A DNA stretch of 12,596 nucleotides, from the IMG/VR virus record IMGVR_UViG_2695420714_000002; one strand, written 5' to 3'. The translations under genes and the position numbers were made by a program. Position 1 is the stretch's first letter. Each line of letters starts with the position of its first letter. Shown here piece by piece: positions 45-12,596 of this stretch. Below the pieces are notes generated by a model that saw only the letters and a program-made list of their open reading frames with translations, had not been told where the DNA came from and made no database searches. Origin of the DNA: a virus. Taxonomy: Duplodnaviria > Heunggongvirae > Uroviricota > Caudoviricetes.

Positions 45-98
45 CCTGTTTACCTCTTTCTCAGGAAGTTTAGTCTCCAGGATTCCCGGGGCGGTTCA
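1..98 (-). mobile_element. Left end of an IS3-family insertion sequence (IS629/IS1203/IS3411-like), partial; continues beyond the left edge of the window
   Basis: The minus strand from position 98 reads TGAACCGCCCCGGGAATCCTGGAGACTAAACTTCCTGAGAAAGAGGTAAACAGG followed by ATGACTAAAAATACTCGTTTTTCCCCTGAAGTCCGTCAACGGGC. From memory this matches the terminal inverted repeat and orfA leader of IS629-type elements, including the TG terminus typical of the IS3 family. The IS terminal TGA supplies the stop codon of the adjacent 371-aa ORF. Confidence 0.75.
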
Positions 99-1211: not shown

Positions 1212-2632
1212 TAATCACCCCATAGTGAAGAAAAATTACTGCTGGCTGCTGGCTGTGATACCTGCTCAGATTGCGGCAATGTCTGCGACGAAGAAGAAGT
1301 TCCTCTGTCAACTGCTGAAATAACACGCAAAGCATCATAAGCTCGACCAGAAGCAGCTTTCAGCGAATTGAACTGGTTTTCCATCTTCCGGCGCTTGGTA
1401 TCAATGGTTTTTGTGGAGTCGCCAGGCTGAGGGAAATACATTTGATAATATTTTGACATTTCAGCAGGTACGATAGCTGCCCCTGTTTCCTGACGGAGTA
1501 TTGCCATTATTGCGTCATTAGCATTAACAACGTATTGCTGCTCTGTTGGGCTGAGCGTTAAGTTAGCCAGCGTCCCATTACCCAAAGCATTATTAATGAT
1601 CGCCACTCGCTGTGGGCTAAGCTGGCCTTTCAGTGTATCCATTGAATCAAGAGCATCCCTAACTCTGTATGCAAATCCAGCAGCTTTTTTAGCCCCTTCT
1701 GGCGACTTTTCCATGATCTTTTGGGCTGTTGGCAAAGCTATTGGACGAAACCCATCTCCAGATATTGGCTGGTTTAGTTTTCCCTGCTCTTCACTTCCGT
1801 CTGTGTAGTATTTTGTGACAGTGCCATCATCGTTTTCCCTAACACTCATTAATTTTTTGGCGTTTGTATTAATTCCAGCCGCTGCCGCAAATGCCGCTGC
1901 CCCCTCTGGATCCGCCTTTAACATTTGCGCGTACTGATTGTAATTCTGCATTGCGGCTGTTGGTGCATATGCTGACGTTAACGCATTTGCTCGGCTAATA
2001 TCCTGCCCTCTCGCCTGAAGCGCCTCTCCAGCCTGATTGCTGCGGATTGTCTCTGCCAACTTGCCACGCTCAATATCCCGACCTTCCATTCGATCTTTGA
2101 TATCGAAGTACTTCTCATGACCGAGAGAAAACAGTGCCATACTACCAGCAAGCCGCTGGAATTCCTGTGGATCATTAACATGCATTTCGGCAACAGACTC
2201 AGGAGAAATTCCCAAGCGACGCATTTCATCTTCGTTATCTGCTATGAATTTTCCAAATGCCCCAGTTCCGAGCGAAGATGCGATTTGAGCACTAGTCGCA
2301 AGATGACCAATAGAATTTCTCTGGTCGTCATCAATAAAGCCCATCCCTTTCTGAACGCTTTCAAATTCTTCTGGATACTCAGAAATAAGACTGCGCATTT
2401 TGTTTCTGTCTCCAGACTCAAAAGCCCCGGCATATGCTTTCTGAAACTCTGCTTTACGCTGTTGTTGACGTGCCTGCTGATTAATCTCAGCAACGCCTCT
2501 TAGCCCCTGTAGCGCCATTAAACCTACGTTTGGCTGCTGCTGAAACTGCACAGGCTGAGGAACGGAAGAACGAGGAGCATTATCATTTTGCGGTACCATG
2601 CTAGGCAGCCCGCCAAGTTGCCATGTCGCCAT
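1211..2632 (-). CDS. Putative phage ejection (DNA-transfer) protein, P22 gp20-like (473 aa)
   Basis: 473-aa ORF. Overlaps the upstream gene stop at 2632 and the downstream gene start at 1211 by 1 nt each. Size matches P22 gp20 (about 471 aa, from memory) and it sits between gp7-like and gp16-like genes. Gln/Ala-rich, predicted helical. No similarity search was possible. Confidence 0.5.
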   Translation of the reverse strand: MATWQLGGLPSMVPQNDNAPRSSVPQPVQFQQQPNVGLMALQGLRGVAEINQQARQQQRKAEFQKAYAGAFESGDRNKMRSLISEYPEEFESVQKGMGFIDDDQRNSIGHLATSAQIASSLGTGAFGKFIADNEDEMRRLGISPESVAEMHVNDPQEFQRLAGSMALFSLGHEKYFDIKDRMEGRDIERGKLAETIRSNQAGEALQARGQDISRANALTSAYAPTAAMQNYNQYAQMLKADPEGAAAFAAAAGINTNAKKLMSVRENDDGTVTKYYTDGSEEQGKLNQPISGDGFRPIALPTAQKIMEKSPEGAKKAAGFAYRVRDALDSMDTLKGQLSPQRVAIINNALGNGTLANLTLSPTEQQYVVNANDAIMAILRQETGAAIVPAEMSKYYQMYFPQPGDSTKTIDTKRRKMENQFNSLKAASGRAYDALRVISAVDRGTSSSSQTLPQSEQVSQPAASSNFSSLWGD

Positions 2633-3309
2633 TAGAATCCAAGCCCCCCAACAAGACCAATAAGCCCACCACCAATAGCCCCGGCGACATTACCTATACC
2701 CGGAACAACGGAACCAAGTTGCGCACCCGCTAAAGCGCCTGATGCCGCCCCACCAATACCACGCGCAAGACTGGATGGCTGCTGCGCCTGACCTGCACGA
2801 ATAGCGCCAAGCCCCTGCAAGAGTTGTCCGGTATTATTGGCGTAGTTTTGCCCTGCTGTTGCCTGCCCTGATGCCGCATTCATCCCGACATTTAGCAGGT
2901 TTCCATAATTTTGCATTTGCCCACTAAGCCAATTGTTATAAAGCATGGGCGCAATGGAAGATAACTGGTTACTGGTAGCTGTTGAGCCAAGCCCCCCGGT
3001 AGCTTCTGCTGAGACAAGGTTCTGATAACGGGCCTGATCTGCCTGTGTTTTATATAAACCAGAACCAAAGAAATCATTCGCGGCTTTATTCTGCCCTTCC
3101 AGAGTCATCAGTCCTTGTAGTTGTTGTAAAGCAGGCAATCCGACTTCTGCATACGGCTTGAGATTATTCATCACCGTATTCCACTGCTCGCGCTGCAAAT
3201 CAATTGCCTGCTGCTGGGCCTTCGCCTGAGCTTTAGAGGCACCACCATCACCGCCTTTTTCGTATACGGCACGATTGAGATGTTTATGAGCTATATGGGT
3301 AATTAACAC
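2632..3309 (-). CDS. Putative phage ejection (DNA-transfer) protein, P22 gp7-like (225 aa) with glycine-zipper hydrophobic C-terminus
   Basis: 225-aa ORF; P22 gp7 is about 229 aa (from memory). The C-terminal 40 residues are GIGGAASGALAGAQLGSVVPGIGNVAGAIGGGLIGLVGGLGF, a GxxxG-rich hydrophobic segment. Overlaps the upstream gene by 7 nt. Confidence 0.5.
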   Translation of the reverse strand: MLITHIAHKHLNRAVYEKGGDGGASKAQAKAQQQAIDLQREQWNTVMNNLKPYAEVGLPALQQLQGLMTLEGQNKAANDFFGSGLYKTQADQARYQNLVSAEATGGLGSTATSNQLSSIAPMLYNNWLSGQMQNYGNLLNVGMNAASGQATAGQNYANNTGQLLQGLGAIRAGQAQQPSSLARGIGGAASGALAGAQLGSVVPGIGNVAGAIGGGLIGLVGGLGF

Positions 3310-3764
3310 TCGCTGAATTCCTTATATTGTTGCCGAGTTAACTGATAAAGCGTTACGCCGACGGGTTTACCACATCTGATATAAGCATCATCAAGGTGAC
3401 CAACACGGGTAGCGCCAAGCAAACTGATAATTGCCCGTCCGTATTTCGTTGTGTCAGGAACCATGGTAATGCTGTTAAGGAATGGTGAGTTTTCGAGAAG
3501 CCATTTGCAGAATAATCGATGCCCTTGCAGTGCATATTCACCACGGAATCCGGGGTCGTACACCGCATGGCATTCAACAATGCTATGCCAGAAGTTACGC
3601 ACTTCATGAACGCCAGCCAGCACCAATCCTTCGTAGATACCGAGATATACCGCATCAGGCTTGATGTAGTACGTGTGCCCCGGCTCAACAATATTTTCGG
3701 TATTGCCAGGCTCGTTGAGAAAGGCCTGTAATCGCACAGGGTTATCAATAAATTTTAGTTCCAT
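3303..3764 (-). CDS. Hypothetical 153-aa protein, P22 gene-14-like position upstream of the ejection-protein genes (alternative: small acetyltransferase-like protein)
   Basis: 153-aa ORF, first large gene of the cassette; translation MELKFIDNPVRLQAF...YIRCGKPVGVTLYQLTRQQYKEFSEC. Weak SD (GGATGG) upstream of the ATG at 3764. The family assignment is an inference from synteny. Confidence 0.45.
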   Translation of the reverse strand: MELKFIDNPVRLQAFLNEPGNTENIVEPGHTYYIKPDAVYLGIYEGLVLAGVHEVRNFWHSIVECHAVYDPGFRGEYALQGHRLFCKWLLENSPFLNSITMVPDTTKYGRAIISLLGATRVGHLDDAYIRCGKPVGVTLYQLTRQQYKEFSEC

Positions 3765-3780
3765 GCGATGCCATCCATTT

Positions 3781-3942
3781 TCACATACAGCCTGCCAGCG
3801 CCTTATCTATTAACCCTCGTGCAATTTCATGCAGAGTTGGCGCTACTCCAATTCCTGATTTTTTACGCTGCTCTTCCTGAATTTTCTTTATCGCTTCCAT
3901 TTGCTTCTCACTTATCAATACCGGCTTTACTGAAATAGCCAT
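3781..3942 (-). CDS. Small 53-aa protein with ribbon-helix-helix-like residue pattern (not in the ORF track, below its size cutoff)
   Basis: ATG at 3942..3940 with a strong SD (AAGGGGG) about 5 nt upstream; stop TGA at 3783..3781, 16 nt before the 153-aa gene start. Translation MAISVKPVLISEKQMEAIKKIQEEQRKKSGIGVAPTLHEIARGLIDKALAGCM shows a short beta-strand-like segment followed by two helix-like segments, as in Arc/MetJ/CopG proteins. Confidence 0.45.
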   Translation of the reverse strand: MAISVKPVLISEKQMEAIKKIQEEQRKKSGIGVAPTLHEIARGLIDKALAGCM

Positions 3943-3969
3943 AACGCCCCCTTAGAACTGTATAAAACA

Positions 3970-4010
3970 ACAGTTATTATAGTTTCACAAATCGCAATAT
4001 TCATCATCGT
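3970..4010 (-). promoter_or_regulatory. Candidate sigma70-type promoter for the 53-aa ORF and ejection-protein cassette
   Basis: Minus-strand TATAAT (plus-strand attata at about 3976-3981) lies about 30 nt upstream of the SD of the 53-aa ORF. The -35 region is weak. A 6-bp inverted repeat AACTGT-N8-ACAGTT (about 3956-3975) overlaps the predicted transcription start. Confidence 0.3.
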
Positions 4011-4037
4011 AATTGCAAAATATGAAACAGATAGCAC

Positions 4038-4070
4038 AAAAAAATGCCACCGCTCAGTAGCTGGTGGCAT
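4038..4070 (-). terminator. Rho-independent terminator closing the primase operon
   Basis: 8-bp stem ATGCCACC/GGTGGCAT (about 4044-4051 and 4063-4070) with an 11-nt loop. On the minus strand it is followed immediately by a run of 7 T (plus-strand A7 at 4038-4044). Confidence 0.5.
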
Positions 4071-4262
4071 CGTTCTGTGTGTCAGGTTTTGACAGGTTTT
4101 TTATGGACTCTAAAAACTATATTTATGGTGTCGCATTACTCTTCACGGCAGGCGCTTTTCAGTTCTGCCCTTGCTTCTGGCTCCATTGGTAATTTGATTC
4201 GCGATCAGCTATGCGGATGGTTTGCTGAACAGGTATAACAACTTCTCAGGGGCTGTTTTCTG

Positions 4263-4340
4263 AACTACGAAAATTTCGTAGTGCTCACTTTCAAAAACGT
4301 CACGCCCTTGTACACAGGATTTTACGAAAGTCTCGTAAAA
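4263..4340. promoter_or_regulatory. Two related palindromic operator-like sites sharing the half-site TACGAAA
   Basis: Site 1 at about 4263-4283: aaCTACGAAA-a-TTTCGTAGtg. Site 2 at about 4320-4340: TTTTACGAAA-g-TcTCGTAAAA. Their centres are about 57 bp apart, in the non-coding region between the primase stop and the terminator. Confidence 0.4.
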
Positions 4341-4389
4341 CACTCTCTGATGCCAGCCAGGTGTTGTGCGCATCAATTCAGTCACATTG

Positions 4390-4501
4390 TGTTGGTTCAA
4401 AATACCGTGCTGTTGGTTCAGTGTTGGTTCAATAAAAAGAATAAAATTCTTATAAAACAATACTCTTTACAAATTGAACCAACTGAACCAACTGAACCAA
4501 C
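4390..4501. repeat. Iteron cluster: three direct and three tandem inverted copies of GTTGGTTCA flanking an AT-rich spacer; putative replication origin or cis-replication region
   Basis: TGTTGGTTCA at 4390-4399, 4411-4420 and 4422-4431. TGAACCAAC, the reverse complement, in perfect tandem at 4475-4483, 4484-4492 and 4493-4501. The roughly 43-bp spacer between them (4432-4474) is strongly AT-rich. The cluster lies directly downstream of the primase gene. Confidence 0.6.
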
Positions 4502-4526
4502 GCCTTTTCTACGCACATGAAGAAGC

Positions 4527-7286
4527 TCATTCTTCAGATGAGTTGTAATCTCCTGGCTGGTAATTGAGTACATAAACGTTTATTTGTCGTCCCTGAATAC
4601 GTGGTGATTTTCTTTGGTATCCACGACCGCTGTTTGGTGGGGTTAGCATCCCGGCTTTTTTCAACACTTCAGCAAACTGTTTTGCGTTGAAACCACATGC
4701 GATCTCCTTTTCAAATGTGGCCGGGAATGTGTAGAAAATCATTGGGCTTTCGTCATGTTCTCCACGCTGACGGTATCCGGCTAAATCTTTGATGGGCAAA
4801 TCTGCCGGGCTGTATGGAAATGGTGCAAAACGGCTAAGCCCATAGGCATTAAGAAATGCCTCCGTTTGTTCAATAATCTGCTGATGTTCTTTGTTACCTG
4901 TGCCGAACTCGCGCAACCATGCGTTATAGCTGTGCTGTATCGCATCACGGCATGTCTGAGCATCCCAGCCTGTTACAACCTCGCCTAACAGCAATGCGGC
5001 CTCCAGAATGGCAAATCGCGCGGCTACACGGTGAACCTGCTCACCATAATCGGATGGGATCAGACTTCTCCATCTGCTTTCGCAGTCACGAACAGTTTTA
5101 ATTGCCTGTTGCTGGTGGTCTGCCAGCCATTTAATCCACTCACGCCCGGCTGCGCCGTGGTGATGCTGGTAAGCGTCTTTCAGTGCGTCTGCGTGCTGTT
5201 TTCCGTTCTGGTAATCGTGAAAGCGTACTGCTTTACTCAACGGAATATTCAGCAGTCGCACCAGTTGCCCGGCTTTGGTTTTTCGCCCGGAAGTAGCGAT
5301 AAATGTTTCTAAATCCATTTCTCCGGTGCTGATTGCCACTGTACGCCAGCGTTTTAGATCCCGGTTTCCACCATCTTTAGCGCCTTGCAGTTTCCCTACA
5401 CCGTTAAATAACGCATAGGCAGACTGTGAAACACTGACAGGATCAGCGCCCTGACCAACTTCATCAAGCGGCATTAGTCCGTCATTGTGGGCGGCGGCTT
5501 CATTTGCCAGCCCCAGCGCGGTTCCGTACCACGTCAGCCGCAGTAAATCAGGGTTGCCGTATAAGCTGCTCGCCACGTTTGCCGTGGTGGTCTTACCTGC
5601 GCTCGACTGCTCATAGAAATGAATGCCGAACCCGTCAGCGCCCACCAGCCCAATCAATGGCGCTGCCAGTGCTGCGCCGATCCCGGTCATCATTGAATAG
5701 TTACCAAAGGCCAGACGCGCCACGTTATCACGCCAGCTTTTCGCGCTCCCTGAGACGGTATATCCGGCTGCGGCTGAGCTTCTCCCGCTGAACAGCACAG
5801 GATTTTCAGGTGTTCCGATGATTTCCCCATCAGGCATGATGTACGCTCCGCATTGCCAGCCAGTGGCATGAGCAACACGCCACAATTCACGAGAGCCACT
5901 GCGTTGTAGCCAGTCTGCCAGTATTGCTCTGAGGCTGCTTTTGGTCGTGACATTTACCCCACCAGCTTTAAGTGTGCGCCATCCTTCACGTTCACCAATA
6001 TCAGCCAGTGGAATGGCAGCGGTTGTCGGCGTTTCAGAACCAAACGACAGCCAGCGAAGAATGAGATACTGGTCTTTATCGTCTCTGCCAGTACCGATAA
6101 CGCTTAACGGAGAACATAACCAGCTTTCGTTATTGATGATTTCTCCACTCTGGCTGTCAGCTCTCGGAGATACCCAATAAATGCCATCCTCGCGGCTTTC
6201 TATTCTTGGTTTCAGTGGGTCGGTATCCATAACCTTAAAATCGCTTCCCTCAATGGTTTGTGGCTCCTGTTTCACGCCATTACCCTGTGGTTGGTACATT
6301 GACTTATTGAACGCTTCTGTGGCGCATTTAATGCCGTGTTTTTGGTGGTAATCATTCCAGTCTGCTTTGTGATCTGTCGGGGGTAATGCCACCCATCCAG
6401 AAACAGATAAAGCTGCTTTTTCTGCTGCTATTCTCCCCGTGTTTTGTCTTCCTTCGCTGTGGTCGTTATCCGCAGCAATGATGATTTGTGCTGAAGGAAA
6501 TTTATCCCGCAGTACCTGGGCGACATATAACAGGTTCCCGGCATCAATCGCCGCCACTGTCAGCGCCTCTGGACGCATTAAATGGGCAGATAATGCCGTT
6601 GCCAGCCCTTCTGCGATTAAGATGCTCTGTGTTGTTTCTGGTGCGTTTATGGCGTGATATGCCCCCCGCTTTGCTGAACCTATCAGGAGTCTTTTTTCAC
6701 CATGTGAGGTAATAGTCTGTGCTGCTGTTACTGCGCCGGATTTATCCACCAGCGCCAGCAACAGAGATCCATCGGGCAACACGGGGAATGTAAAATCACC
6801 TACCCCTTTCGCAACCAGATAATCAGATTTGCCGTTTACAGCCTTTCTGCGCATGTCATCAAACTGACGGGAAAACGTATCCCGTCTTTGTTGTTCGTCC
6901 TTCTCTGCCCTTTTCAGGCGCTCCTGTTCGCGTCGCTGGCGCTCGGTTTCCAGTTGTTCCCGTTTCTGGCTGGTGGCTTCTGGTGTTTCCGTTGTCCGGT
7001 AATCAATACCCAGAACATCAGCGGCAAGAAGCGCCGCCTCTGTTGTGTCGCAGTTATTTACGCGTTTAATTAAATCCAGCCCATCACCAGCGCCGCACTG
7101 ATTACAGATGAAGCTACCGCGCCCGTTGTCATCGAACCGGAATCGATCTTTGCCCCCACATGCAGGGCAGGGAGCATGACGGCGCGGAGAGTCAGGGACA
7201 TTTATGTTCAGGCAGCCCAGCACATGAGGCCAGTTGTTTTCAGACGCACTGATAACCTGACGGATAAGATCAATGTTTCGCATCAC
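4527..7286 (-). CDS. Phage/plasmid-type DNA primase with zinc-binding N-terminus, TOPRIM domain and C-terminal P-loop NTPase (P4 alpha-like architecture), 919 aa
   Basis: Zinc-finger-like CPACGGKDRFRFDD...CNQCG near the N-terminus; TOPRIM-like acidic motif IIIAADNDHSEG; Walker A-like FYEQSSAGKTT. The first codon is GTG at 7286 with an ATG at 7283; a G-rich SD lies upstream. The start overlaps the upstream 123-aa gene by 17 nt. Confidence 0.85.
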   Translation of the reverse strand: MMRNIDLIRQVISASENNWPHVLGCLNINVPDSPRRHAPCPACGGKDRFRFDDNGRGSFICNQCGAGDGLDLIKRVNNCDTTEAALLAADVLGIDYRTTETPEATSQKREQLETERQRREQERLKRAEKDEQQRRDTFSRQFDDMRRKAVNGKSDYLVAKGVGDFTFPVLPDGSLLLALVDKSGAVTAAQTITSHGEKRLLIGSAKRGAYHAINAPETTQSILIAEGLATALSAHLMRPEALTVAAIDAGNLLYVAQVLRDKFPSAQIIIAADNDHSEGRQNTGRIAAEKAALSVSGWVALPPTDHKADWNDYHQKHGIKCATEAFNKSMYQPQGNGVKQEPQTIEGSDFKVMDTDPLKPRIESREDGIYWVSPRADSQSGEIINNESWLCSPLSVIGTGRDDKDQYLILRWLSFGSETPTTAAIPLADIGEREGWRTLKAGGVNVTTKSSLRAILADWLQRSGSRELWRVAHATGWQCGAYIMPDGEIIGTPENPVLFSGRSSAAAGYTVSGSAKSWRDNVARLAFGNYSMMTGIGAALAAPLIGLVGADGFGIHFYEQSSAGKTTTANVASSLYGNPDLLRLTWYGTALGLANEAAAHNDGLMPLDEVGQGADPVSVSQSAYALFNGVGKLQGAKDGGNRDLKRWRTVAISTGEMDLETFIATSGRKTKAGQLVRLLNIPLSKAVRFHDYQNGKQHADALKDAYQHHHGAAGREWIKWLADHQQQAIKTVRDCESRWRSLIPSDYGEQVHRVAARFAILEAALLLGEVVTGWDAQTCRDAIQHSYNAWLREFGTGNKEHQQIIEQTEAFLNAYGLSRFAPFPYSPADLPIKDLAGYRQRGEHDESPMIFYTFPATFEKEIACGFNAKQFAEVLKKAGMLTPPNSGRGYQRKSPRIQGRQINVYVLNYQPGDYNSSEE

Positions 7287-7641
7287 CGTACCCCACGTGG
7301 TCTATAGCGTTTGCGATATGGCTAACCAGCATCTGCCACTTGGTTATTCCGTAATCAGTCAGCATGCCATCATTGTTTAGCCACATATCAAATTCAGCGG
7401 TTGTCGCAAGTTTCCACTTATCGCCGTGGACAGTCCTCATTGCTGGGTACATGAATGCGCAAATCAGATCACAAACATCTGACGGCTTCAGAGATGTAGT
7501 AATGGTGCGTCCCTCTGGCGTCTGAATTGCCATTTTCTCTTCACTAGTAGAATGAAGGTTATGAATCCACACAGCGCCAGCAATCTTTGCCACCTGCTCT
7601 CCGATTGCGGAGCTAAGCGCCATTTCTGCATTTTCACGCAT
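7270..7641 (-). CDS. Hypothetical protein (123 aa), translationally coupled to the primase
   Basis: ATG at 7641 with SD GGGAGG 5-6 nt upstream; 8-nt overlap with the upstream gene; the 3' end overlaps the primase start. Confidence 0.6.
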   Translation of the reverse strand: MRENAEMALSSAIGEQVAKIAGAVWIHNLHSTSEEKMAIQTPEGRTITTSLKPSDVCDLICAFMYPAMRTVHGDKWKLATTAEFDMWLNNDGMLTDYGITKWQMLVSHIANAIDHVGYGDAKH

Positions 7642-7975
7642 GAGAACCTCCCGCTACAGTTGCGCCCATGTCATTAACCATGCTTTGCCATATCTCACGC
7701 CCGACGTCAGTCAATCCGTCCTTAGTGACGCAACGATCAAGAAGCTCTATCACCACGGTTTCCCACTGCGGGTAGAACACTTTCATGGCTGCCAGTGTGT
7801 AGCTATCGATCAGGCTGCGAACGCCTTTTACTCCATTGACGATTTCCACACGGACGGCCTCGCCGTCCGCATCAACCATGAAATAGTCCCCGCCGCTGGT
7901 GGAGGTAATGTGGTTATACAGTGCCGACGCATACTTATTTGCCAGCGCATTCAGTCGGAAATTTTTAGTAATCAT
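7634..7975 (-). CDS. Hypothetical protein (113 aa)
   Basis: ATG at 7975 with GGAG/GAGGA upstream; 10-nt gap after the upstream gene stop; same-strand operon context. Confidence 0.55.
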   Translation of the reverse strand: MITKNFRLNALANKYASALYNHITSTSGGDYFMVDADGEAVRVEIVNGVKGVRSLIDSYTLAAMKVFYPQWETVVIELLDRCVTKDGLTDVGREIWQSMVNDMGATVAGGSHA

Positions 7976-7985
7976 GGCTCCATCC

Positions 7986-8588
7986 TCAGTGCGTCACTGG
8001 TTCCGCTGGCATGCCGTTTTCATTCAGTTCAGCTATAAAGCTGTTGTGAAGTTCAGCAAGCGTTTCACGACCAAATGGAGTCAGTGCTCCTTGTTCCACA
8101 TCCATCATGGCTCTGTAGAAAATGATGGCGCGTTCTGTGCCAGACTCGATGCCAAAACGTTCTATCATCGCGCCCTCAATGTTGTTTGCCATAGCGAGGC
8201 GCTCTGCTACTGGATACAGCGGCATGGCGACGATGCCGTTGGAATAAACAGCCACTTCGGAAGGATTGCCAGTATCATCAATGATGCTGACAGTGCCGTT
8301 TTCCTCTCTCATTTCCAGCATGAATACTGTTGCGATCAGCCATCTCCACATAATGACGTTATGCTGTGATGTGTAATCGAAATATCCTTGGTTGCCGCCA
8401 TCGGCAATAGCGAGATGTATTGACATACCTTCATCTGGTTTATCGTCATAATCCCCGGCATCCAGACGATTTACGGCATCAATATATGAAACGGCCTCAA
8501 CGCGTTCTGTCATGCCATCGTTGCTGCGGTGTATGATGTTTACGCCGTCAGGCGTTGCTTCTGCATGGAAGGTTAAGAAATTATTCAT
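7986..8588 (-). CDS. Hypothetical protein (about 200 aa; start re-called at the internal ATG, the track ORF extends to 8693)
   Basis: The track ORF 7986..8693 overlaps the upstream gene by about 110 nt. The internal Met (MNNFLTFHAEATPDG...) at about 8588 gives the ATGAATAA-type 8-nt start/stop overlap seen at other junctions in this operon, with GAGG upstream. Confidence 0.55.
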   Translation of the reverse strand: MNNFLTFHAEATPDGVNIIHRSNDGMTERVEAVSYIDAVNRLDAGDYDDKPDEGMSIHLAIADGGNQGYFDYTSQHNVIMWRWLIATVFMLEMREENGTVSIIDDTGNPSEVAVYSNGIVAMPLYPVAERLAMANNIEGAMIERFGIESGTERAIIFYRAMMDVEQGALTPFGRETLAELHNSFIAELNENGMPAEPVTH

Positions 8589-8802
8589 GTTTCGCCTCGC
8601 CTGAATGATTCTGTAACTCATATTTGCCCAACAATTCGTCTGCTTCCTGAATAGCTTCTGGTACGCCATTGAGCAGTGACATAACCGCGCCAATCATTAA
8701 CTTGTCTCTGTTGCTGGGGCTGGCCCCTTCAAGCCAGAACCCTAAAACAGTCTGAACCTGTTCGATGCGACATTGCGCTTCAATGAGCTGGATGTTGGTC
8801 AT
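8581..8802 (-). CDS. Hypothetical protein (73 aa)
   Basis: ATG at 8802 with SD GGAGAG about 6 nt upstream; ATGA-type 4-nt overlap with the upstream gene. Confidence 0.55.
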   Translation of the reverse strand: MTNIQLIEAQCRIEQVQTVLGFWLEGASPSNRDKLMIGAVMSLLNGVPEAIQEADELLGKYELQNHSGEAKHE

Positions 8803-9062
8803 TTCGCACTCTCCGCATCGATTAAACTGATATCTATCAGAGAGGTAACTTTTTGTAGCCAGCTAGTGATTACTGTCGCCTGTTCCCCTCCCACCGATGG
8901 AAGAATCTCATTCATCACATGAACCAGACCTGTGCGCGCTCTGGTAAGCCGTTCAGTCGTGCGATCTGCAAGAGTGAATGTGTCTGGATATGGCTCTTCA
9001 CGGCTCAGCAATGATTCAATTTCCAGCTCACACGGATGACGATAAATTAAGTTGATATTCAT
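8799..9062 (-). CDS. Hypothetical protein (87 aa)
   Basis: ATG at 9062 with a G-rich SD (GGGGG) about 7 nt upstream; ATGA overlap with the upstream gene stop. Confidence 0.55.
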   Translation of the reverse strand: MNINLIYRHPCELEIESLLSREEPYPDTFTLADRTTERLTRARTGLVHVMNEILPSVGGEQATVITSWLQKVTSLIDISLIDAESAK

Positions 9063-9253
9063 TTTTCACCCCCAAGAATTACCAGCTCTGCACGAGCATC
9101 GTTAACCAAAGATGAGCACGCTTTAATCGCATCCACGACATCAGCAGCGTCCATTTCTTCAGCCGAAAGACTGACAGCAACCAGGACAGCCGCTGCTTGC
9201 TCGATTAATTGAAGTGCGGACGTAAGTCGAGGGGCATTAATTGAGTTATTCAT
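9059..9253 (-). CDS. Hypothetical protein (about 64 aa; start re-called at the internal ATG, the track ORF extends to 9310)
   Basis: Internal Met ([10 protein letters not shown]...) at 9253 with AGGGG about 7 nt upstream and an 8-nt ATGAATAA-type overlap with the stop of the upstream 72-aa gene. The longer track start would overlap that gene by about 65 nt. Confidence 0.5.
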   Translation of the reverse strand: MNNSINAPRLTSALQLIEQAAAVLVAVSLSAEEMDAADVVDAIKACSSLVNDARAELVILGGEK

Positions 9254-9464
9254 TGGTTGCCCCTGTTTTTCCAGGCATTTCGCCACCTTCCAGCAGGAAA
9301 TGAACGTCACGAACGGCGAGATCCAATATCGCGAGTAACGCCTTCAGTTTTTCGTCTCGTGAGGGAGAGTTGCTCACCAGAATGTCATTAATCACTTCTG
9401 TCAGTGTGATGATCTGGCTTGTGCGTTCGAGGGGATCCATATGCACATCGTAGGTTTTAATCAT
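9246..9464 (-). CDS. Hypothetical protein (72 aa; [13 protein letters not shown]...), annotated here as an independent gene rather than the C-terminus of the 355-aa track ORF
   Basis: ATG at 9464 preceded by SD GGAGG with a 6-nt spacer. The start overlaps the stop of the 64-aa gene as ATGATTAA. The translated sequence is helical and protein-like, unlike the 355-aa frame immediately upstream of it. Confidence 0.6.
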   Translation of the reverse strand: MIKTYDVHMDPLERTSQIITLTEVINDILVSNSPSRDEKLKALLAILDLAVRDVHFLLEGGEMPGKTGATNE

Positions 9465-10313
9465 GTGCCACCTCCATGCGGATACGACCAGCAAAAAAGC
9501 AGACGTGATCGCGCACCAGAGAACGGCGAGCATCGCGTTCAGACTCGGCAGCAATATGATGAATTTTGGCGGTAATTGTCGGGCAATCGCGGCGAACTGC
9601 GGCGATAATCCAGATAAATTGCGGTTTTTGGGTAGGGGTAGTAGCCAGCATGTGGCAGCCTCCTTGTACTGGGAATTCTTCCCACCACCGGAGCTGCGAA
9701 ACTCGCTGGTGGTGGACTGAACAGAGTTCGCAGTACCGGCGTACAAGGAAACCGGCCAGCCTTTCGGCTGCCCTGTCCAGCCCACCATAATTTTGCAAGC
9801 GACGCGGATTATAACCACATCACTGAAAAAAGTGTGAGTCTGGCTAACGGCACAAAAAAAGACGCTCGGCGCGTCATGTGTCGCCTCGTACATTTCCGGG
9901 CTGCGAAACCCGGCACCCGTTTTATGAGGTGCCTTATAACCATAAACCGTGTTGCCGCATAACGACAAGCTCTTTTTTATGGACTCCGAAAACTCACTAT
10001 TGGAAGCACCAGATGCACAATACATCGCGCTCATTTCGTTAACGTCGCGCGTGTGGACGAAGGTTTTTGTGGAGCCACTACGCGAGCAGAGAAAGCCATC
10101 TACGACCAGAAATTCTCTGGCGCAGCCGCTGACCCTCTCAACGCTAACACCATCGACCGTAATTTCTGACATAGTTAAGGCATCCGCTCCTACCACCAGC
10201 AAATGATAAACCTTGCTTGCATCTGCTGTATTAATGCCTGATTTTGCTGTCATATTGCTGGATTTTTGCGACATACCAGCCAGTGAAAATATCTTCTTCT
10301 GGGCGGTTAGCAT
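9246..10313 (-). CDS. ORF with a strong start at 10313 (355 aa in the track); probably composite: an N-terminal hypothetical protein of about 150 aa that has lost its stop, or reads through, fused in frame across the leader to the 72-aa gene
   Basis: ATG at 10313 with SD GGAGG about 7 nt upstream and an ATGCTAA-type overlap with the upstream gene stop, so a real gene starts here. The frame stays open through a hairpin-T7 element, a TATAAT, a structured leader and the 64-aa gene in another frame. Both alternative frames hit stop codons shortly after the T7 tract. Confidence 0.3.
9457..9651 (-). CDS. Hypothetical protein (64 aa; [22 protein letters not shown]...), first gene of the small-gene/primase operon
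   Basis: Internal ATG of the 113-aa track ORF 9457..9798, preceded by a perfect SD (AAGGAGG) with about a 7-nt spacer. Its stop TAA overlaps the next gene's ATG. It lies in a different frame from the 355-aa track ORF, whose translation here is compositionally odd (Trp/Pro-rich). By my base count the ATG is at 9650..9648, one nt off the frame implied by the track. Confidence 0.5.
   Translation of the reverse strand: MLATTPTQKPQFIWIIAAVRRDCPTITAKIHHIAAESERDARRSLVRDHVCFFAGRIRMEVAHD
9653..9747 (-). promoter_or_regulatory. Structured 5' leader: nested hairpins with pseudoknot potential that occlude the SD of the 64-aa gene
   Basis: Outer 8-bp stem CCTTGTAC (9661-9668) with GTACAAGG (9740-9747); the mRNA arm overlaps the AAGGAGG SD. 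Inner 10-bp GC-rich stem 9681-9690 with 9705-9714, with a 14-nt loop. Loop sequence CTGCGAA (9694-9700) is complementary to TTCGCAG (9726-9732). Confidence 0.4.
9853..9874 (-). terminator. Terminator-like GC hairpin followed by a T7 run on the minus strand (candidate attenuator or intrinsic terminator)
   Basis: Plus-strand A7 at 9853-9859 followed by GACGC-tcggc-GCGTC at 9860-9874; on the minus-strand RNA this is a hairpin followed by UUUUUUU. The stem is only 5 bp, so this is weak. A TATAAT on the minus strand (about 9812..9807) follows it. Confidence 0.3.
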
Positions 10314-10489
10314 TTGTTAACCTCCGCGAACTCCTTCATGAAACGTGCCAGCGGTTGTACGCATGGCGATTGATACCCGTCGCGATAAAACGTCACTCGG
10401 TTGTGAGACACGCTTTCGACAGTAACGAGTGCTCCGTGGGCATCTTTGTAGCGTTTTTGAGGTTGTGGTGTTCCTGTCGGCTTAAACAT
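10307..10489 (-). CDS. Hypothetical small protein (60 aa; start re-called at the internal ATG, the track ORF extends to 10576)
   Basis: Internal Met (MFKPTGTPQPQKRYKDAHG...) at 10489 with SD GGAGG 6 nt upstream and an 8-nt overlap with the antirepressor stop (ATGTTTAA). The longer track start lies inside the antirepressor gene. Confidence 0.55.
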   Translation of the reverse strand: MFKPTGTPQPQKRYKDAHGALVTVESVSHNRVTFYRDGYQSPCVQPLARFMKEFAEVNKC

Positions 10490-11315
10490 GGACCGCCTCC
10501 AGACGCTTAGCGAGCCAGCGTTGCGACAGGCGGGTGAGTTCTCCTTTGCGCTGCTCATATTCCATGCCCATATCAATTAACGTGATATTGGTGCTTTCGA
10601 GATATGAGAGGTGCTCAAGCTGTTCTGCGTTCATATGGTCGCGAGGTTCGCCAGAATAGCCATTTATCCGCGCCCACTGCTTAGCAGTTAGCCCACCAAG
10701 AACGATACGAGAAATCATATTGCTCTCGTTTGTGTAGTGGTGTTGCTGCGTCGTTTTACCCATCTCGGCACGGGCCATATTCAGCGCATCGCACATTGGC
10801 TTAAAGTTGTTTGCGGCACTGATACGGGCTTTTAGCTGGCGACGATAGCGGGCGGCGATTTCAGGCACGCTACGCTGTAATTCTTCCTCGCACTGGATGA
10901 AATAACGGCGGATAGCGCGACCCTGATCATTGCGTTCGATCATTGCCAGTTCTTTCGCCATTCCGACACTTAACAGATAGTCTTTGCCGGGCCTGCCAGA
11001 CTGCTTAATCTTGCTGTAAGCCGCGCCATTCGGGCTTTTCCCCAAATTTGGGGAAATTGTTTTATGGACTGAGTAATCGCGCCCAATGGTGAAGTCATAC
11101 TCAGAGATGCGATCAGTGATCCATGTAGAGAAGTCTTTTCCCACGCCCAACGCTTTGTGTAACGCTTTTGCGCTAACAATATTGGTTTCACGCCCACCGA
11201 TATGACCAGGAATAACCGGGACAATTGCGGCAAATTCATTACCGTTAATTGTGCCCAGAAAGGCGTTCGGATGAGGGGCGGCCTCAGAAATTAATCTGCT
11301 TTTTTCGATGTTCAT
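10482..11315 (-). CDS. Phage antirepressor-like protein, AntA/AntB family (277 aa)
   Basis: Segments such as VSAKALHKALGVGKDFSTWITDRISEYDFTIGRDY and DYLLSVGMAKELAMIERNDQGRAIRRYFIQCEEEL match conserved AntA-type antirepressor motifs as I recall them. SD GGAGAC 8 nt upstream of the ATG at 11315. Confidence 0.6.
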   Translation of the reverse strand: MNIEKSRLISEAAPHPNAFLGTINGNEFAAIVPVIPGHIGGRETNIVSAKALHKALGVGKDFSTWITDRISEYDFTIGRDYSVHKTISPNLGKSPNGAAYSKIKQSGRPGKDYLLSVGMAKELAMIERNDQGRAIRRYFIQCEEELQRSVPEIAARYRRQLKARISAANNFKPMCDALNMARAEMGKTTQQHHYTNESNMISRIVLGGLTAKQWARINGYSGEPRDHMNAEQLEHLSYLESTNITLIDMGMEYEQRKGELTRLSQRWLAKRLEAVHV

Positions 11316-11327
11316 TTTCAGTCTCCG

Positions 11328-11759
11328 TTAGGCGGCGTTAAACGCGTCCGGGTAGAGTTTCAGAATGTCGGCAATTTCCTGCTGAGAAAGTCCGTTGTGA
11401 TCATTTATGTTCGCAAGATGGTTAACATGAGTGATCACTTTCAGAACATCACCACGGCAGGAGAAACGGTAGCGAAGGTGTGCTCCGATACCATCAGGAT
11501 TCTTTTCGTCGATACGCTCCAGAGTGATCCCAAGCTGGCGTTCTAACTCTGTTGCATAGTTACGACCAGAAGACAGACGGCAGTAGCGAAGAATGTCGTT
11601 TTCTGTCCATCCCTCTATACCAGTACGCAGCATATAGACTCGGGCGCGATGCTTTTTTGGTGTGCGCTTTGGTGCTTGAAGGGATTTTGTCAGGGGCGTA
11701 ACATCAGATACGCGAATATCTGAATTAGCCGCCTGTAATGGGCGGTTTTTCTTTTCCAT
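11328..11759 (-). CDS. Hypothetical protein (143 aa), translationally coupled to the AlpA-like gene
   Basis: ATG at 11759 overlaps the AlpA-like gene stop by 1 nt. Basic N-terminus (PKRTPKKHRAR). No recognisable catalytic motif. Confidence 0.55.
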   Translation of the reverse strand: MEKKNRPLQAANSDIRVSDVTPLTKSLQAPKRTPKKHRARVYMLRTGIEGWTENDILRYCRLSSGRNYATELERQLGITLERIDEKNPDGIGAHLRYRFSCRGDVLKVITHVNHLANINDHNGLSQQEIADILKLYPDAFNAA

Positions 11760-11962
11760 CAGGCCACCTTCCCGCGGCGTTCTGCCAGCCAGTTGTGAAT
11801 CTCAACCGCATCAAACGCAGTTATTTTTTCTCCCAGCTTTACCGGACGTGGTAGTGAACCGTTTCTTACTTTACGGTCGATGGTGGATACACTAACGCCC
11901 AGCAATTCAGCCAGGCGGAAGCGTCTGATATAGCCTTTTGTAGGAATAGTGTCGGTGTTCAT
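11759..11962 (-). CDS. alpA: AlpA-family (prophage CP4-57-type, excisionase-like) helix-turn-helix transcriptional regulator (67 aa)
   Basis: 67 aa. RFRLAELLGVSVSTIDRKVRNGSLPRPVKLGEKITAFDAVEIHNWLAER fits the AlpA pattern of an HTH followed by a conserved Pro/Lys segment and a C-terminal Trp-containing helix. First gene of the operon. Confidence 0.7.
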   Translation of the reverse strand: MNTDTIPTKGYIRRFRLAELLGVSVSTIDRKVRNGSLPRPVKLGEKITAFDAVEIHNWLAERRGKVA

Positions 11963-11963
11963 G

Positions 11964-12011
11964 CTTCCCGTAACCTCTTAGCGATAGTTGTTGCTTCGTT
12001 ACGGGAGGAAG
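11964..12011 (-). promoter_or_regulatory. 5' UTR stem-loop that sequesters the AlpA-like gene ribosome-binding site
   Basis: CTTCCCGTAAC (11964-11974) pairs with GTTACGGGAGGAAG (11998-12011): 9 bp, a 2-nt bulge and about 2 more bp. The 3' arm on the mRNA (GTTACGGGAAG) ends 1 nt before the ATG. Confidence 0.35.
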
Positions 12012-12030
12012 TATCTGTACATATATGAAC

Positions 12031-12061
12031 AATAAAAAGGCACAGTAATGATACTGTGCCT
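12031..12061 (-). terminator. Rho-independent terminator downstream of the 134-aa gene
   Basis: 10-bp stem AGGCACAGTA/TACTGTGCCT (12038-12047 and 12052-12061) with a 4-nt loop. On the minus strand it is followed by TTTTTATTGTT (plus-strand aataaaaa at 12031-12038). It sits about 15 nt after the stop at 12077. Confidence 0.6.
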
Positions 12062-12076
12062 GAATAGTTAGCTACT

Positions 12077-12481
12077 CTACCCCTTACCGTTGGCGGCAGC
12101 ACGTAAGTGTCTCAAAATCACATCTTCATTTGTGATTGCTAACGGTGGAATTTCGTCTTTATGAGCCACTATGCAATCCCGCCACTTCTCAGGGCTTATT
12201 TCTTTCTTTTTGCCACGGCATTCATCAGGATACTTTGACAAAAGATATATTGCTGATTTGAAAAGTTTTTCCCTGTTTTCAGCATGTCTCTCGGCATTAT
12301 GGTTGCTATTTTTTATTTCAGGTATTAGTTCCTGTTCTACCGCCATTTCGTATCGTTTTTTGCTCTTAGCTGCGTCAAAACTTCCATTAACCTTTGCGTC
12401 GTGAAGATATTCTAAATCAGCCTTTGTTATATAAATGTTTTTATCTGACAGGCTACTCAGGTGAATCTGGGAACTTTGCAT
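12077..12481 (-). CDS. Hypothetical protein (134 aa), AT-rich stand-alone accessory gene between the presumed integration end and the AlpA-like gene
   Basis: ORF with visibly lower GC than its neighbours (AAA/AAT/ATA-rich codons). Charged, Lys/Glu-rich product with no recognisable motif. Has its own terminator; the RBS is weak. Confidence 0.5.
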   Translation of the reverse strand: MQSSQIHLSSLSDKNIYITKADLEYLHDAKVNGSFDAAKSKKRYEMAVEQELIPEIKNSNHNAERHAENREKLFKSAIYLLSKYPDECRGKKKEISPEKWRDCIVAHKDEIPPLAITNEDVILRHLRAAANGKG

Positions 12482-12533
12482 TTTGAATGTAAGCGTGCAG
12501 CAAGAACCGTATTGACGGGGATGTGTTATTCAG

Positions 12534-12596
12534 TCGGCAGTGCTACGCGCCAGGGGAGCAGTTCGCCGACCCGGTTTATCGGCCAGTCGGCTATGA
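12534..12596 (-). CDS. Possible 3' end of a minus-strand gene running in from beyond the right edge (for example an integrase); identity unknown
   Basis: Two minus-strand frames are open from the window edge to stops at about 12531-12536 (for example ...IADWPINRVGELLPWRVALPTE*). GC-rich, unlike the adjacent AT-rich gene. No start is visible in the window. Confidence 0.2.

What the first reader, a model, noticed from the sequence alone, without database searches (positions are those of the whole stretch)
12077..12481. AT-rich stand-alone cargo gene with its own terminator upstream of the AlpA-like gene
The 134-aa ORF has clearly lower GC than the rest of the window, a different codon flavour, and is bracketed by a strong terminator (12031-12061) on one side and GC-rich sequence on the other. 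That is the signature of a horizontally acquired moron in a variable slot. Int-proximal slots in P4-like and related elements are documented hotspots for anti-phage or accessory genes. The product is charged and helical, with no recognisable motif.
Basis: partly seen in the sequence, partly recalled or inferred. Interest (0 to 1): 0.5.

Follow-up and report, generated by a model that had tools for sequence, protein, structure and literature searches.

The report
IS-truncated remnant of satellite slot gene
The 134-codon reading frame is not a complete gene: it is the tail end of a 321-codon gene of a phage-satellite island, cut off by an insertion sequence, and the parent gene belongs to an uncharacterised, fast-diversifying family that always sits between the island's integrase and its AlpA regulator.

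Summary
The measured observations hold. The ORF at 12077-12481 (- strand) has 39.8% GC against 48.5% for the window. A strong terminator hairpin lies 15 nt after its stop codon. An AlpA-family gene follows.

The ORF is not a stand-alone gene. Its DNA is 100% identical to the last 134 codons of a 321-codon gene found intact in 75 complete E. coli genomes. At 12489 the homology gives way to the end of an IS66-family element (ISEc22-like). The "GC-rich sequence on the other side" is that IS. The remnant has lost its promoter region, ribosome-binding site, N-terminal domain and most of its middle domain, so it is most probably dead.

The parent family matches no Pfam, NCBIfam, PADLOC or PDB entry. 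It is confined to Enterobacterales satellites and directly follows the integrase gene in all 21 loci read; alpA follows directly in 19. It is always AT-rich. It has a MerR/Xis-like fold at the N-terminus, a hypervariable acidic middle and a strongly conserved helical C-terminus.

E. coli islands with near-identical int and alpA carry at least six different genes in this slot, so the "variable slot" idea is right. An anti-phage role is unproven. The closest precedent is the iolg/icg gene class of Vibrio PICMI satellites. Function remains unknown.

The parts
12077..12488 (-). 3' remnant of a 966-nt int-contiguous satellite gene. It comprises the last 134 codons (from internal Met188), two further codons (F186-K187) and one more retained base, and ends at the IS junction. 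It encodes the end of the variable middle, the linker and the conserved C-terminal helical domain.
   Evidence: 100% DNA identity to L001:6378-6789 (E. coli B4103-1, WP_001555743.1, 321 aa). The in-frame stop 16 codons upstream lies inside the IS, so there is no fusion ORF.
12489..12596 (.). Terminal 108 nt of an IS66-family (ISEc22-like) insertion sequence, starting with GTAAGCG. The transposase reading frame ends 48 nt before the remnant's ATG and points the same way.
   Evidence: Homology to the intact allele stops at 12488. The segment matches 4606 places in 2109 E. coli genomes annotated 'IS66-like element ISEc22 family transposase'. GC is 58%. Translation.
12028..12061 (-). Intrinsic terminator of the slot gene: a 10-bp stem, a 4-nt loop and a T-tract. 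It insulates alpA from int/slot-gene transcription.
   Evidence: Energy -16.5 kcal/mol, z = -6.1. Five of the other seven alleles examined show a strong hairpin of different sequence at the same position.
11759..11962 (-). alpA, the AlpA-family regulator/excisionase. It is the first gene of the satellite's inducible operon and the right-hand conserved flank of the variable slot.
   Evidence: PF05930 E = 2.2e-8; phrog_66. 72-96% identical in most related loci, 37% in L006.
11967..12005 (-). Conserved inverted repeat CCCGTAAC-N23-GTTACGGG enclosing the alpA Shine-Dalgarno sequence. It marks the point where homology between slot alleles resumes.
   Evidence: RNA fold -15.4 kcal/mol, z = -3.2.

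Best explanation
Shown:
- The ORF is a pseudogene fragment. An IS66-family element inserted into codon 186/187 of a 321-codon gene.
- What remains in the window is the last 134 codons plus the gene's own terminator. The upstream control region, ribosome-binding site, N-terminal domain and most of the middle domain are missing.
- The insertion is recent: there are no mismatches to the intact allele.
- The host element is a degraded PICI/P4-type phage satellite (alpA, antA, DUF4222, C4/isrK RNAs, TOPRIM-DUF927 primase, P22-type ejection-protein genes). An IS3-family element cuts its other end.
- The parent gene belongs to an uncharacterised family restricted to such satellites in Enterobacterales.
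- The gene lies directly after int on the same strand, probably co-transcribed with it, and is followed by its own terminator and then alpA.
- The protein has three modules: a MerR/Xis-like winged-helix fold (about residues 20-58) whose 'recognition' helix is acidic; a hypervariable, strongly acidic beta-rich middle; and a 75-residue helical C-terminal domain under strong purifying selection.
- Alleles are swapped as cassettes between otherwise near-identical islands.

Inferred (about 0.4-0.45):
- The intact protein is a non-enzymatic binding or adaptor protein made constitutively with Int in the quiescent island.
- Its variable middle recognises a phage-specific (helper) partner. Its conserved ends couple that recognition to the satellite's excision and activation machinery.
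- That would make it the enterobacterial counterpart of the iolg/icg genes of Vibrio PICMI satellites, one of which is needed for excision.
- In this window the function is lost.
For: Truncation:
- Searches show the identity and the extended frame. One search identifies the IS. One search shows a stop in the IS and no fusion. One search finds no promoter-like site. One search places the promoter-like sites of the intact gene upstream of the junction.

Element type:
- (AlpA, AntA, DUF4222, Toprim_3+DUF927). (int next to yicC, ejection proteins, PerC). (C4 81 bits, isrK 69 bits). (EcCIMP1 has the same module set and a P22-like helper). (IS3 end).

Family restriction and synteny:
- 48 clusters at 90% identity, none with a Pfam domain.
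- Only 33 clusters among 1.84 billion representatives, with the matched stretch at the C-terminus in all full-length members.
- The gene directly follows int in all 21 loci read. alpA directly follows it in 19. The loci lie in at least four chromosomal neighbourhoods, and one is a circular 21.8-kb Klebsiella replicon.

Composition:
- Family genes are 35-40% GC with GC3 about 30%. Flanking int and alpA are 49-55% GC.

Architecture:
- Mean pairwise identity by domain: N 48%, middle 30%, linker 28%, C 75%. Helix-2 net charge has median -2. The middle has median net charge -18.
- C-domain pN is 0.06-0.17 with pS 0.64-0.89.

Cassette exchange:
-.

Other slot families:
- The 293-aa family shares the N-domain weakly (hhalign E = 2.8e-4) and is also int-contiguous in Providencia and Neptunomonas.

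Precedent:
- In PICMIs the gene between int and alpA (iolg/icg) falls into 13 families of unknown function, and iolg is needed for PICMI115 excision.
Against: - No experiment or homology assigns any function.
- The same Int (99% identical) and the identical AlpA protein are paired with unrelated slot proteins (321, 281 and 216 aa). This is awkward for a cofactor that must contact Int or AlpA specifically.
- In PICMI115 the iolg deletion was complemented only with int+iolg together, so that precedent is itself soft.
- Persistent AT-richness, cassette turnover and a private terminator are also what defence or exclusion cargo looks like.
- EcCIMP1 confers unexplained superinfection immunity.
- EcCIMP1 carries only a small ORF, roughly a tenth the size of UvrB, in this slot, so a large slot gene is not universal in AlpA-type PICIs.
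- In EcCICFT073, helper phages induce an alpA reporter in strains C600 and 594, which are not described as carrying the island.
- Homology to PICMI iolg proteins was not tested.
Confidence: 0.7

Rival explanations
1. The parent gene is anti-phage or superinfection-exclusion cargo in a satellite hotspot. The protein is expressed from the quiescent island. Its variable domain senses an infecting phage and it blocks infection directly or through a host partner. The window copy is an inactivated allele.
For: - AT-rich relative to all neighbours in every element.
- Alleles are exchanged between near-identical backbones, with breakpoints at the flanks.
- The gene has its own terminator.
- It is expressed in the same direction as int.
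- P4-like satellites and PICIs are documented to carry defence genes at int-proximal positions.
- The related island EcCIMP1 gives unexplained superinfection immunity with no known defence system detected.
Against: - The only PADLOC hit is one marginal match (PDC-S31, E = 0.002, 15.5 bits) for one allele, and none for 13 other slot or family proteins.
- No enzymatic or membrane domain was found; maximum hydropathy is 0.89.
- The slot always holds exactly one gene of 216-380 aa and never a recognised or multi-gene system.
- The families were never found outside this slot in about 25 contexts.
- True P2/P4 hotspots vary in gene number and share systems with other mobile elements.
Confidence: 0.3
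2. The parent gene is the satellite's master repressor, a Stl-like protein. The N-terminal winged helix binds an operator in the cassette-specific 30-70 nt between its terminator and the alpA leader. The variable middle binds a helper-phage protein that lifts repression.
For: - It lies next to int and is polymorphic, as Stl is.
- It has a MerR/Xis-like fold.
- The exchanged cassette includes the DNA just upstream of the alpA leader. Short repeats or near-palindromes occur there in some alleles.
- A repressor for Gram-negative PICIs is unknown, and the helper signal that turns on alpA is unidentified.
Against: - The helix equivalent to the recognition helix is acidic (median charge -2, invariant Asp41) with no conserved basic residues.
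- The gene is co-directional with alpA and separated from it by a terminator, not divergent.
- The element has a P1/P4-type RNA immunity module (C4 and isrK).
- An unrelated 216-aa protein occupies the slot in islands with the same int.
- In EcCICFT073 the alpA reporter is helper-inducible on a plasmid in strains C600 and 594, which are not described as carrying the island.
- The IS knockout in this window has evidently been tolerated.
Confidence: 0.08
3. The 134-aa ORF is an intact, independently expressed small gene. Alternatively, the remnant is still made as a free C-terminal domain by read-through from the IS transposase gene, and retains or gains activity.
For: - The ORF is open, starts with ATG and keeps its terminator.
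- The IS66 transposase frame is co-oriented and ends 48 nt upstream, so read-through transcription is possible.
- The fragment contains the whole conserved C-domain. That domain is confidently modelled within the full-length protein (pLDDT about 87-94); the fragment folded alone reaches only pLDDT 72.
Against: - Identity to the interior of a 321-codon gene is complete.
- Met188 is not conserved.
- There is no Shine-Dalgarno sequence or promoter-like site.
- No family member in 1.84 billion representatives is a natural C-domain-only protein. The few short hits look like contig-end or partial fragments (P0049, P0050 and P0068).
- The junction was not found in any of 5426 complete E. coli genomes, so it is a private, recent event.
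Confidence: 0.04

Closest known systems
iolg / icg genes (integrase-overlapping or integrase-contiguous genes) of Vibrionaceae PICMI satellites (Nat Commun 2024, PMC10803314)
   Same: - A single gene wedged between int and alpA on the same strand.
- Many unrelated families occupy the same position (13 in PICMIs; at least 3-6 here).
- All are of unknown function.
- Proposed to be expressed constitutively with int.
- One E. coli slot family (216 aa) even overlaps int by 4 nt.
   Different: - Different host clade and satellite type.
- The allele in this window is separated from int by 95 nt.
- No sequence comparison with PICMI iolg proteins was possible.
- The excision requirement was shown only for PICMI115, and only by int+iolg complementation.
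Int-proximal defence hotspot of P4-like satellites and accessory regions of PICIs (Rousset et al. 2022; de Sousa et al. 2023)
   Same: - A variable interval flanked by conserved core genes next to int.
- Cassette exchange between near-identical backbones.
- AT-rich content.
   Different: - Here occupancy is always one gene of similar size.
- No recognised defence system was ever seen.
- The families are slot-specific.
- The P4 hotspot lies between int and psu, not between int and alpA.
SaPI Stl / Gram-positive PICI Rpr master repressors
   Same: - Adjacent to int and highly polymorphic.
- About 250-320 aa, with an N-terminal helix-turn-helix-type fold plus a variable partner-binding part.
   Different: - Stl is divergent from the operon it represses and has a basic XRE-type HTH.
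- This family is co-directional, terminator-insulated and has an acidic 'recognition' helix.
- The element also carries C4-type RNA immunity.
YfjH of cryptic prophage CP4-57 (intA-yfjH-alpA in E. coli K-12)
   Same: A roughly 318-aa, AT-rich (36.8% GC) ORFan occupying the int-alpA interval of the element that gave AlpA its name.
   Different: - Opposite strand, divergent from alpA.
- No detectable homology (hhalign probability 0.2%).
EcCIMP1 (E. coli PICI mobilised by the P22-like phage Kapi1; ISME J 2025, PMC11773190)
   Same: The same kind of island: int, a slot ORF, alpA, antirepressor, ash, primase, DUF2824 and DNA-transfer/ejection proteins shared with the helper, and PerC.
   Different: - EcCIMP1_002 in the slot is a small ORF, about a tenth the size of UvrB, mis-annotated as UvrB-like, and is not this family.
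- Different integration site (proA/yagU).

Membership tests
Self-contained moron (promoter + intact ORF + terminator) | Intact ORF with its own translation start | tested here: not met
   The ORF starts at internal Met188 of a 321-codon gene. There is no SD, and the upstream sequence is an IS end.
Self-contained moron (promoter + intact ORF + terminator) | Own promoter | tested here: not met
   No sigma-70-like site in 11600-12596. In the intact locus none lies between int and the gene.
Self-contained moron (promoter + intact ORF + terminator) | Own terminator and deviant base composition | tested here: met
Known anti-phage defence systems (PADLOC-DB 2.0) | Significant match to a defence-protein HMM | tested here: not met
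   The fragment gives no hit. The full-length protein gives only PDC-S31 at E = 0.002 (15.5 bits). Thirteen other family or slot proteins give nothing.
MerR / excisionase (HTH_17, AlpA) winged-helix DNA-binding proteins | Sequence match to Pfam HTH_17, MerR or Phage_AlpA | tested here: not met
   No such hit at E <= 1 for five family members.
MerR / excisionase (HTH_17, AlpA) winged-helix DNA-binding proteins | Winged-helix fold of the MerR/Xis type | tested here: met
MerR / excisionase (HTH_17, AlpA) winged-helix DNA-binding proteins | Basic or polar recognition helix suited to DNA contact | tested here: not met
PICMI-type iolg/icg (int-contiguous satellite gene) | Single gene between int and alpA, same strand, contiguous with or overlapping int | tested here: met
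   Met in intact relatives. The gene directly follows int in all 21 loci, with gaps from about 130 nt down to 18 nt. The 216-aa slot family overlaps int by 4 nt.
PICMI-type iolg/icg (int-contiguous satellite gene) | Position filled by multiple unrelated families | tested here: met
PICMI-type iolg/icg (int-contiguous satellite gene) | Required for helper-induced excision | not testable with these tools
   Needs genetics. Shown only for PICMI115.
PICMI-type iolg/icg (int-contiguous satellite gene) | Sequence or fold homology to PICMI iolg proteins | not tested
SaPI Stl-like master repressor | Divergently transcribed from the operon it represses, with a DNA-binding HTH | tested here: not met
   The gene is co-directional with alpA and separated from it by a terminator. 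Helix 2 is acidic.
IS66-family insertion sequence (ISEc22-like), for 12489-12596 | Multi-copy element annotated as IS66-family, with a terminal repeat beginning GTAAGCG | tested here: met
   4606 places in 2109 genomes, annotated as IS66-like ISEc22 family transposase. The terminus is read. That the GTAAGCG motif is typical of IS66 ends is from my own knowledge.
IS66-family insertion sequence (ISEc22-like), for 12489-12596 | 8-bp target-site duplication at both ends | not testable with these tools
   The other IS end lies outside the window.
PICI / P4-type phage satellite, for the host element | int + alpA + primase core without phage capsid, tail or lysis genes | tested here: inconclusive
   alpA and a TOPRIM-DUF927 primase are in the window. 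int is present in intact relatives but not in the window. P22-type ejection-protein genes are present. Helper dependence is not testable here.

The most novel reading that the evidence does not exclude
The polymorphic, satellite-only genes wedged between int and alpA (this family, the 293-aa family that shares its N-domain, and the PICMI iolg/icg genes) may form one functional class. On this reading they are the helper-phage recognition module of AlpA-type satellites in Gram-negative bacteria. The variable acidic middle would bind a helper-specific protein. The conserved ends would license excision and activation. That would explain helper specificity, for which no sensor is known.
Probability: 0.25. 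Interest if true: 0.7.

Novelty: new member of a known kind. Interest (0 to 1): 0.33.

Why it matters
The window copy is an ordinary IS-killed pseudogene. It matters mainly as a caution: a tidy ATG-to-stop ORF with a terminator can be the stump of a larger gene.

The parent family is more interesting. It is an unannotated family with no Pfam domain, locked to the int-alpA junction of enterobacterial phage satellites. It diversifies by cassette exchange while its 75-residue C-terminal domain stays under strong purifying selection.

How Gram-negative PICI-type satellites recognise their helper phages is an open question. So is what the gene between int and alpA does. This family offers a concrete set of natural alleles in near-isogenic E. 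coli islands with which to test that.

Tried and rejected
- **Direct annotation.** Pfam, PHROGs and PADLOC scans of the 134-aa fragment found nothing. Pfam, NCBIfam and PADLOC scans of the full-length protein and relatives gave only chance-level hits: DUF6137 at E = 0.021 and PDC-S31 at E = 0.002 for one allele. PHROGs gave phrog_7144 (unknown function, E = 4.9e-15) for the Salmonella allele and weak phrog_13283 for the N-termini. This shows only that the family has been seen in 'phage' records.
- **PDB by sequence.** The family profile found nothing at E <= 10.
- **BFVD viral structures.** Nothing at E <= 0.001. The afdb50 library was not available.
- **YfjH (CP4-57 int-yfjH-alpA).** Considered as a homologue and rejected (hhalign probability 0.2%, opposite strand).
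- **Conserved internal start at Met188.** An Esc/SieB-style short isoform was rejected because Met188 is not conserved and has no SD.
- **Fusion of the remnant to an IS reading frame.** Rejected because of an in-frame stop 16 codons upstream.
- **C-terminal conservation as a recombination or DNA-level artefact.** Rejected because synonymous sites are saturated while pN is 0.06-0.17.
- **The 216-aa slot family as a cryptic relative.** No signal.
- **Phage collection tblastn with the fragment.** No match.
- **Genome-contig scan.** It returned only 5 loci. Context sampling therefore relied on exact-protein look-ups.
Full report
**1. What is at the coordinates**

A 134-codon ORF (ATG at 12481, stop at 12077-12079, - strand) is present. 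Its GC content is 39.8%, against 48.5% for the window. Among all 405-bp windows (mean 48.7%, sd 3.7%) only 1.2% are as low, and the only other region this low is about 3637-4790. GC3 is 37.0%, against 38.7-57.9% for the other main ORFs tabulated, apart from a 53-aa ORF that ties at 37.0%.

A terminator-like hairpin (10-bp stem, then TTTTTATTGTT) lies at 12038-12061 on the - strand, 15 nt after the stop codon. It folds at -16.5 kcal/mol with z = -6.1, and none of 200 shuffles folds as well. The next gene downstream (11759-11962) is AlpA-family (PF05930, E = 2.2e-8).

**2. The ORF is a stump, not a gene**

Megablast of 11700-12596 against 5426 complete E. coli genomes found 75 genomes that match 11700 to about 12488-12491 at 99.5-100% identity, and then stop. 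In one of them (B4103-1, locus L001) the annotated gene at this place is 966 nt (WP_001555743.1, 321 aa). It lies between a tyrosine integrase and the alpA homologue.

Translation shows that the window ORF is residues 188-321 of that protein (...DLYKFK|MQSSQIHL...). A base-by-base alignment is identical up to window position 12488 and unrelated beyond it. From 12489 the window reads GTAAGCGTGCAGCAAG.... This 108-nt stretch matches 4606 places in 2109 genomes, under features annotated 'IS66-like element ISEc22 family transposase', and is 58% GC.

Further points about the remnant:
- An in-frame stop lies 16 codons upstream, inside the IS, so there is no fusion protein.
- The ATG has no Shine-Dalgarno sequence.
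- No promoter-like site is found in 11600-12596.
- The two weak promoter-like sites inside the intact gene lie upstream of the junction and are gone.
- Met188 is not conserved in homologues.
- The IS/gene junction occurs in none of the 5426 genomes, and the remnant has no mismatch to the intact allele. The insertion is therefore recent and private.
- The IS transposase frame is co-oriented and ends 48 nt upstream, so read-through transcription cannot be excluded. Nothing suggests translation.

**3. The host element**

On the - strand the window reads: [IS66 end], remnant, alpA, a 143-aa gene (annotated 'PM1773 family' in some genomes), antA antirepressor, DUF4222, several small ORFs, a 919-aa Zn-ribbon/TOPRIM/DUF927 primase, DUF2824, three P22-type DNA-ejection protein genes, [IS3-family end at 1-98].

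Rfam finds a C4 antisense RNA (9705-9792, 81 bits) and isrK (9855-9932, 69 bits) on the same strand. This is the RNA-immunity module known from P1 immI and P4.

In intact relatives the island sits between yicC and dinD, with int at the yicC end and a PerC-family gene at the other. This gene set matches the published PICI EcCIMP1, which is mobilised by the P22-like phage Kapi1 and shares DUF2824 and DNA-transfer proteins with its helper. The window is therefore a satellite remnant clipped by insertion sequences at both ends.

**4. The parent gene family**

- A search of 5.8 billion clustered proteins with the 321-aa protein found 48 clusters. All come from Enterobacterales, are mostly 280-365 aa (a few shorter, possibly partial), and have no Pfam domain or informative name.
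- An exhaustive phmmer of the 134-aa fragment against 1.84 billion representatives found only 33 clusters at E <= 0.001. The matched stretch is at the C-terminus in all full-length members.
- Pfam, NCBIfam, PADLOC and a PDB sequence-profile search gave nothing credible.
- Alignment shows three parts. The N-terminal ~40 residues have 48% mean pairwise identity. The middle and linker have 28-30% and variable length. The last 75 residues (ERHAxNREKLFKSAIxLLSKYPDECRG..KEISPEKWRDCI..H..EIPPL.ITNEDVILKHLRSA) have 75%.
- For in-register pairs the C-domain shows pN 0.06-0.17 with pS 0.64-0.89. The conservation is therefore protein-level purifying selection, not recent DNA exchange.
- An AlphaFold2 model (pLDDT 77) predicts a beta-alpha-alpha-beta unit at residues 25-57, a beta-rich middle, and a confident helical C-domain (residues 246-317, pLDDT about 87-94).
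- The helix that would be the recognition helix is acidic (median net charge -2, invariant Asp41). The middle is strongly acidic (median -18). I read the N-domain as more likely a protein-binding module than a DNA reader. This is inference.
- No transmembrane segment or enzymatic motif is evident.

**5. Position and composition are family traits**

In every locus examined the family member directly follows an integrase gene on the same strand, and in 19 of 21 loci an AlpA-family gene directly follows it. The loci are:
- five species from the GTDB scan;
- E. coli, Salmonella and Klebsiella contigs;
- a 21.8-kb circular Klebsiella 'plasmid' that looks like an excised satellite;
- six remote members down to 28-35% identity.

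The loci lie next to yicC, der, asd, a DUF3413 sulfatase gene and elsewhere. The integrases range from 92% down to 27% identity to the E. coli one.

The gene is always AT-rich: 35-40% GC and GC3 about 30%, while the flanking int and alpA are 49-55% GC. The low GC is therefore not a sign of a recent one-off acquisition by this island.

**6. The slot is variable, but in an unusual way**

A 3.07-kb query spanning the 143-aa gene, alpA, the slot gene and int matched 685 E. coli genomes. 75 matched throughout. In an evenly spaced sample of the ranking, 18 of 60 rows matched both flanks but not the middle, with nearly the same total span. Fetching nine of these showed slot genes of 316, 281, 293 (two alleles 61% identical to each other), 216 (overlapping int by 4 nt) and 307 aa. 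All are AT-rich (36-43% GC) and all are annotated hypothetical.

Homology to the reference breaks in one of two places on the left: 12 nt before the int stop, or at the slot start codon. On the right it resumes in one of three places: inside the slot C-domain, 43 nt before the alpA ATG, or just inside alpA. One strain has an AlpA protein identical to the reference and a 99.3% identical int, yet carries a 281-aa slot protein that is only distantly related.

Several alleles share the N-domain motif. The 293-aa family shares it weakly (hhalign E = 2.8e-4, probability 41%), and the 216-aa family not at all. These other families are also always int-contiguous, in Providencia, Neptunomonas and Buttiauxella.

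But the slot always contains exactly one gene of 216-380 aa. It never contains a recognised or multi-gene defence system, and it was never empty in the sample. Its families were not seen anywhere else.

**7. What it most likely is and does**

Shown: the window ORF is a non-functional 3' remnant of an int-contiguous satellite gene.

For the intact gene, the nearest documented precedent is the iolg/icg class of Vibrio PICMI satellites. [quoted passage not shown] In PICMI115 it is needed, together with int and alpA, for helper-induced excision.

I take the following together: strict linkage to int and alpA, single-gene occupancy, binding-type domains without catalytic motifs, and a hypervariable acidic centre between conserved ends. 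On that basis I favour (about 0.4-0.45) a non-enzymatic adaptor. It would be made with Int in the quiescent island, recognise a phage-specific partner and feed into excision and activation.

The main rival (about 0.3) is a single-protein exclusion or defence function. AT-richness, cassette turnover and the private terminator fit that equally well. EcCIMP1 has unexplained superinfection immunity. The pairing of one Int/AlpA with unrelated slot proteins is awkward for a specific cofactor.

A Stl-like repressor role is less likely (about 0.08). The gene is co-directional with alpA and insulated from it by a terminator. Its 'recognition' helix is acidic. The element has C4-type RNA immunity. In EcCICFT073 the helper induces an alpA reporter in strains C600 and 594, which are not described as carrying the island.

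**8. Novelty and verdict**

Int-proximal accessory slots in satellites are documented. An IS-disrupted copy is ordinary. The family itself is unannotated and uncharacterised, and is a reasonable experimental handle on an open question: what the int-alpA gene does, and how helpers are recognised. The finding as stated (a stand-alone AT-rich moron) is only partly right.

Interest is 0.33. The most novel reading still open is that these genes form the helper-recognition module of AlpA-type satellites. I give that reading probability 0.25 and interest 0.7 if true.

Noticed in passing
window 9705-9792 (-) and 9855-9932 (-): Rfam finds a C4 antisense RNA (RF01695, 81 bits) and isrK (RF01394, 69 bits). 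This is a P1-immI/P4-CI-type RNA immunity module inside the satellite. Blastn shows distant similarity to the c4-icd-ant regions of P1-like phages and Stx phages. The 355-aa ORF listed at 9246-10313 overlaps both RNAs and is probably spurious.
   Followed up: partly
window 1-98: The left end of the window is the end of an IS3-family element present in 3553 of 5426 E. coli genomes. It truncates the P22-gp16-like injection-protein gene. The satellite remnant is thus bracketed by two different insertion sequences, and its integrase is not in the window.
   Followed up: partly
window 11967-12005 (-): A conserved inverted repeat CCCGTAAC-N23-GTTACGGG encloses the alpA Shine-Dalgarno sequence (RNA fold -15.4 kcal/mol, z = -3.2). 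The GTAAC...GTTAC core is kept in all eight slot alleles compared. It could be an AlpA autoregulation site or a translational hairpin. No sigma-70-like promoter was found between the terminator and alpA.
   Followed up: partly
window 96-3764 (-): Downstream of the primase the satellite carries a DUF2824 gene and three P22-type DNA-ejection protein genes (gp7/gp20/gp16-like). This is the module that EcCIMP1 shares with its helper Kapi1. It is unusual cargo for a satellite and may relate to helper matching or superinfection immunity.
   Followed up: no
L021 (CP031371.2, Klebsiella pneumoniae 'plasmid' pKpvST101_4, 21.8 kb): A circular 21.8-kb record typed as a non-mobilizable plasmid has the order slot-family gene, alpA, antirepressor, DUF4222. 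It looks like an excised satellite assembled as a replicon.
   Followed up: no
L018:951-2072 and L019, L022, L024: In some E. coli islands the slot holds an unrelated 216-aa gene that overlaps int by 4 nt. It is followed by a 470-nt, 34% GC non-coding spacer before alpA, which is much longer than the ~110-nt spacer of the other alleles.
   Followed up: partly
P0001 residues 253-312 (window 12104-12283, -): The conserved C-domain contains invariant Cys275 and near-invariant Cys290, His253, His294 and His312. These could form a metal site. Model coordinates could not be inspected.
   Followed up: no
window 10482-11315 (-): The C-terminal half of the AntA-family antirepressor matches the PADLOC candidate defence family PDC-S22 (E = 4.3e-11, residues 165-266).
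   Followed up: no
window 7270-10313 versus L001: The window has about 3 kb of extra genes and RNAs between DUF4222 and the primase that are absent in strain B4103-1, where DUF4222 abuts the primase. The islands are mosaic at more than one place.
   Followed up: no
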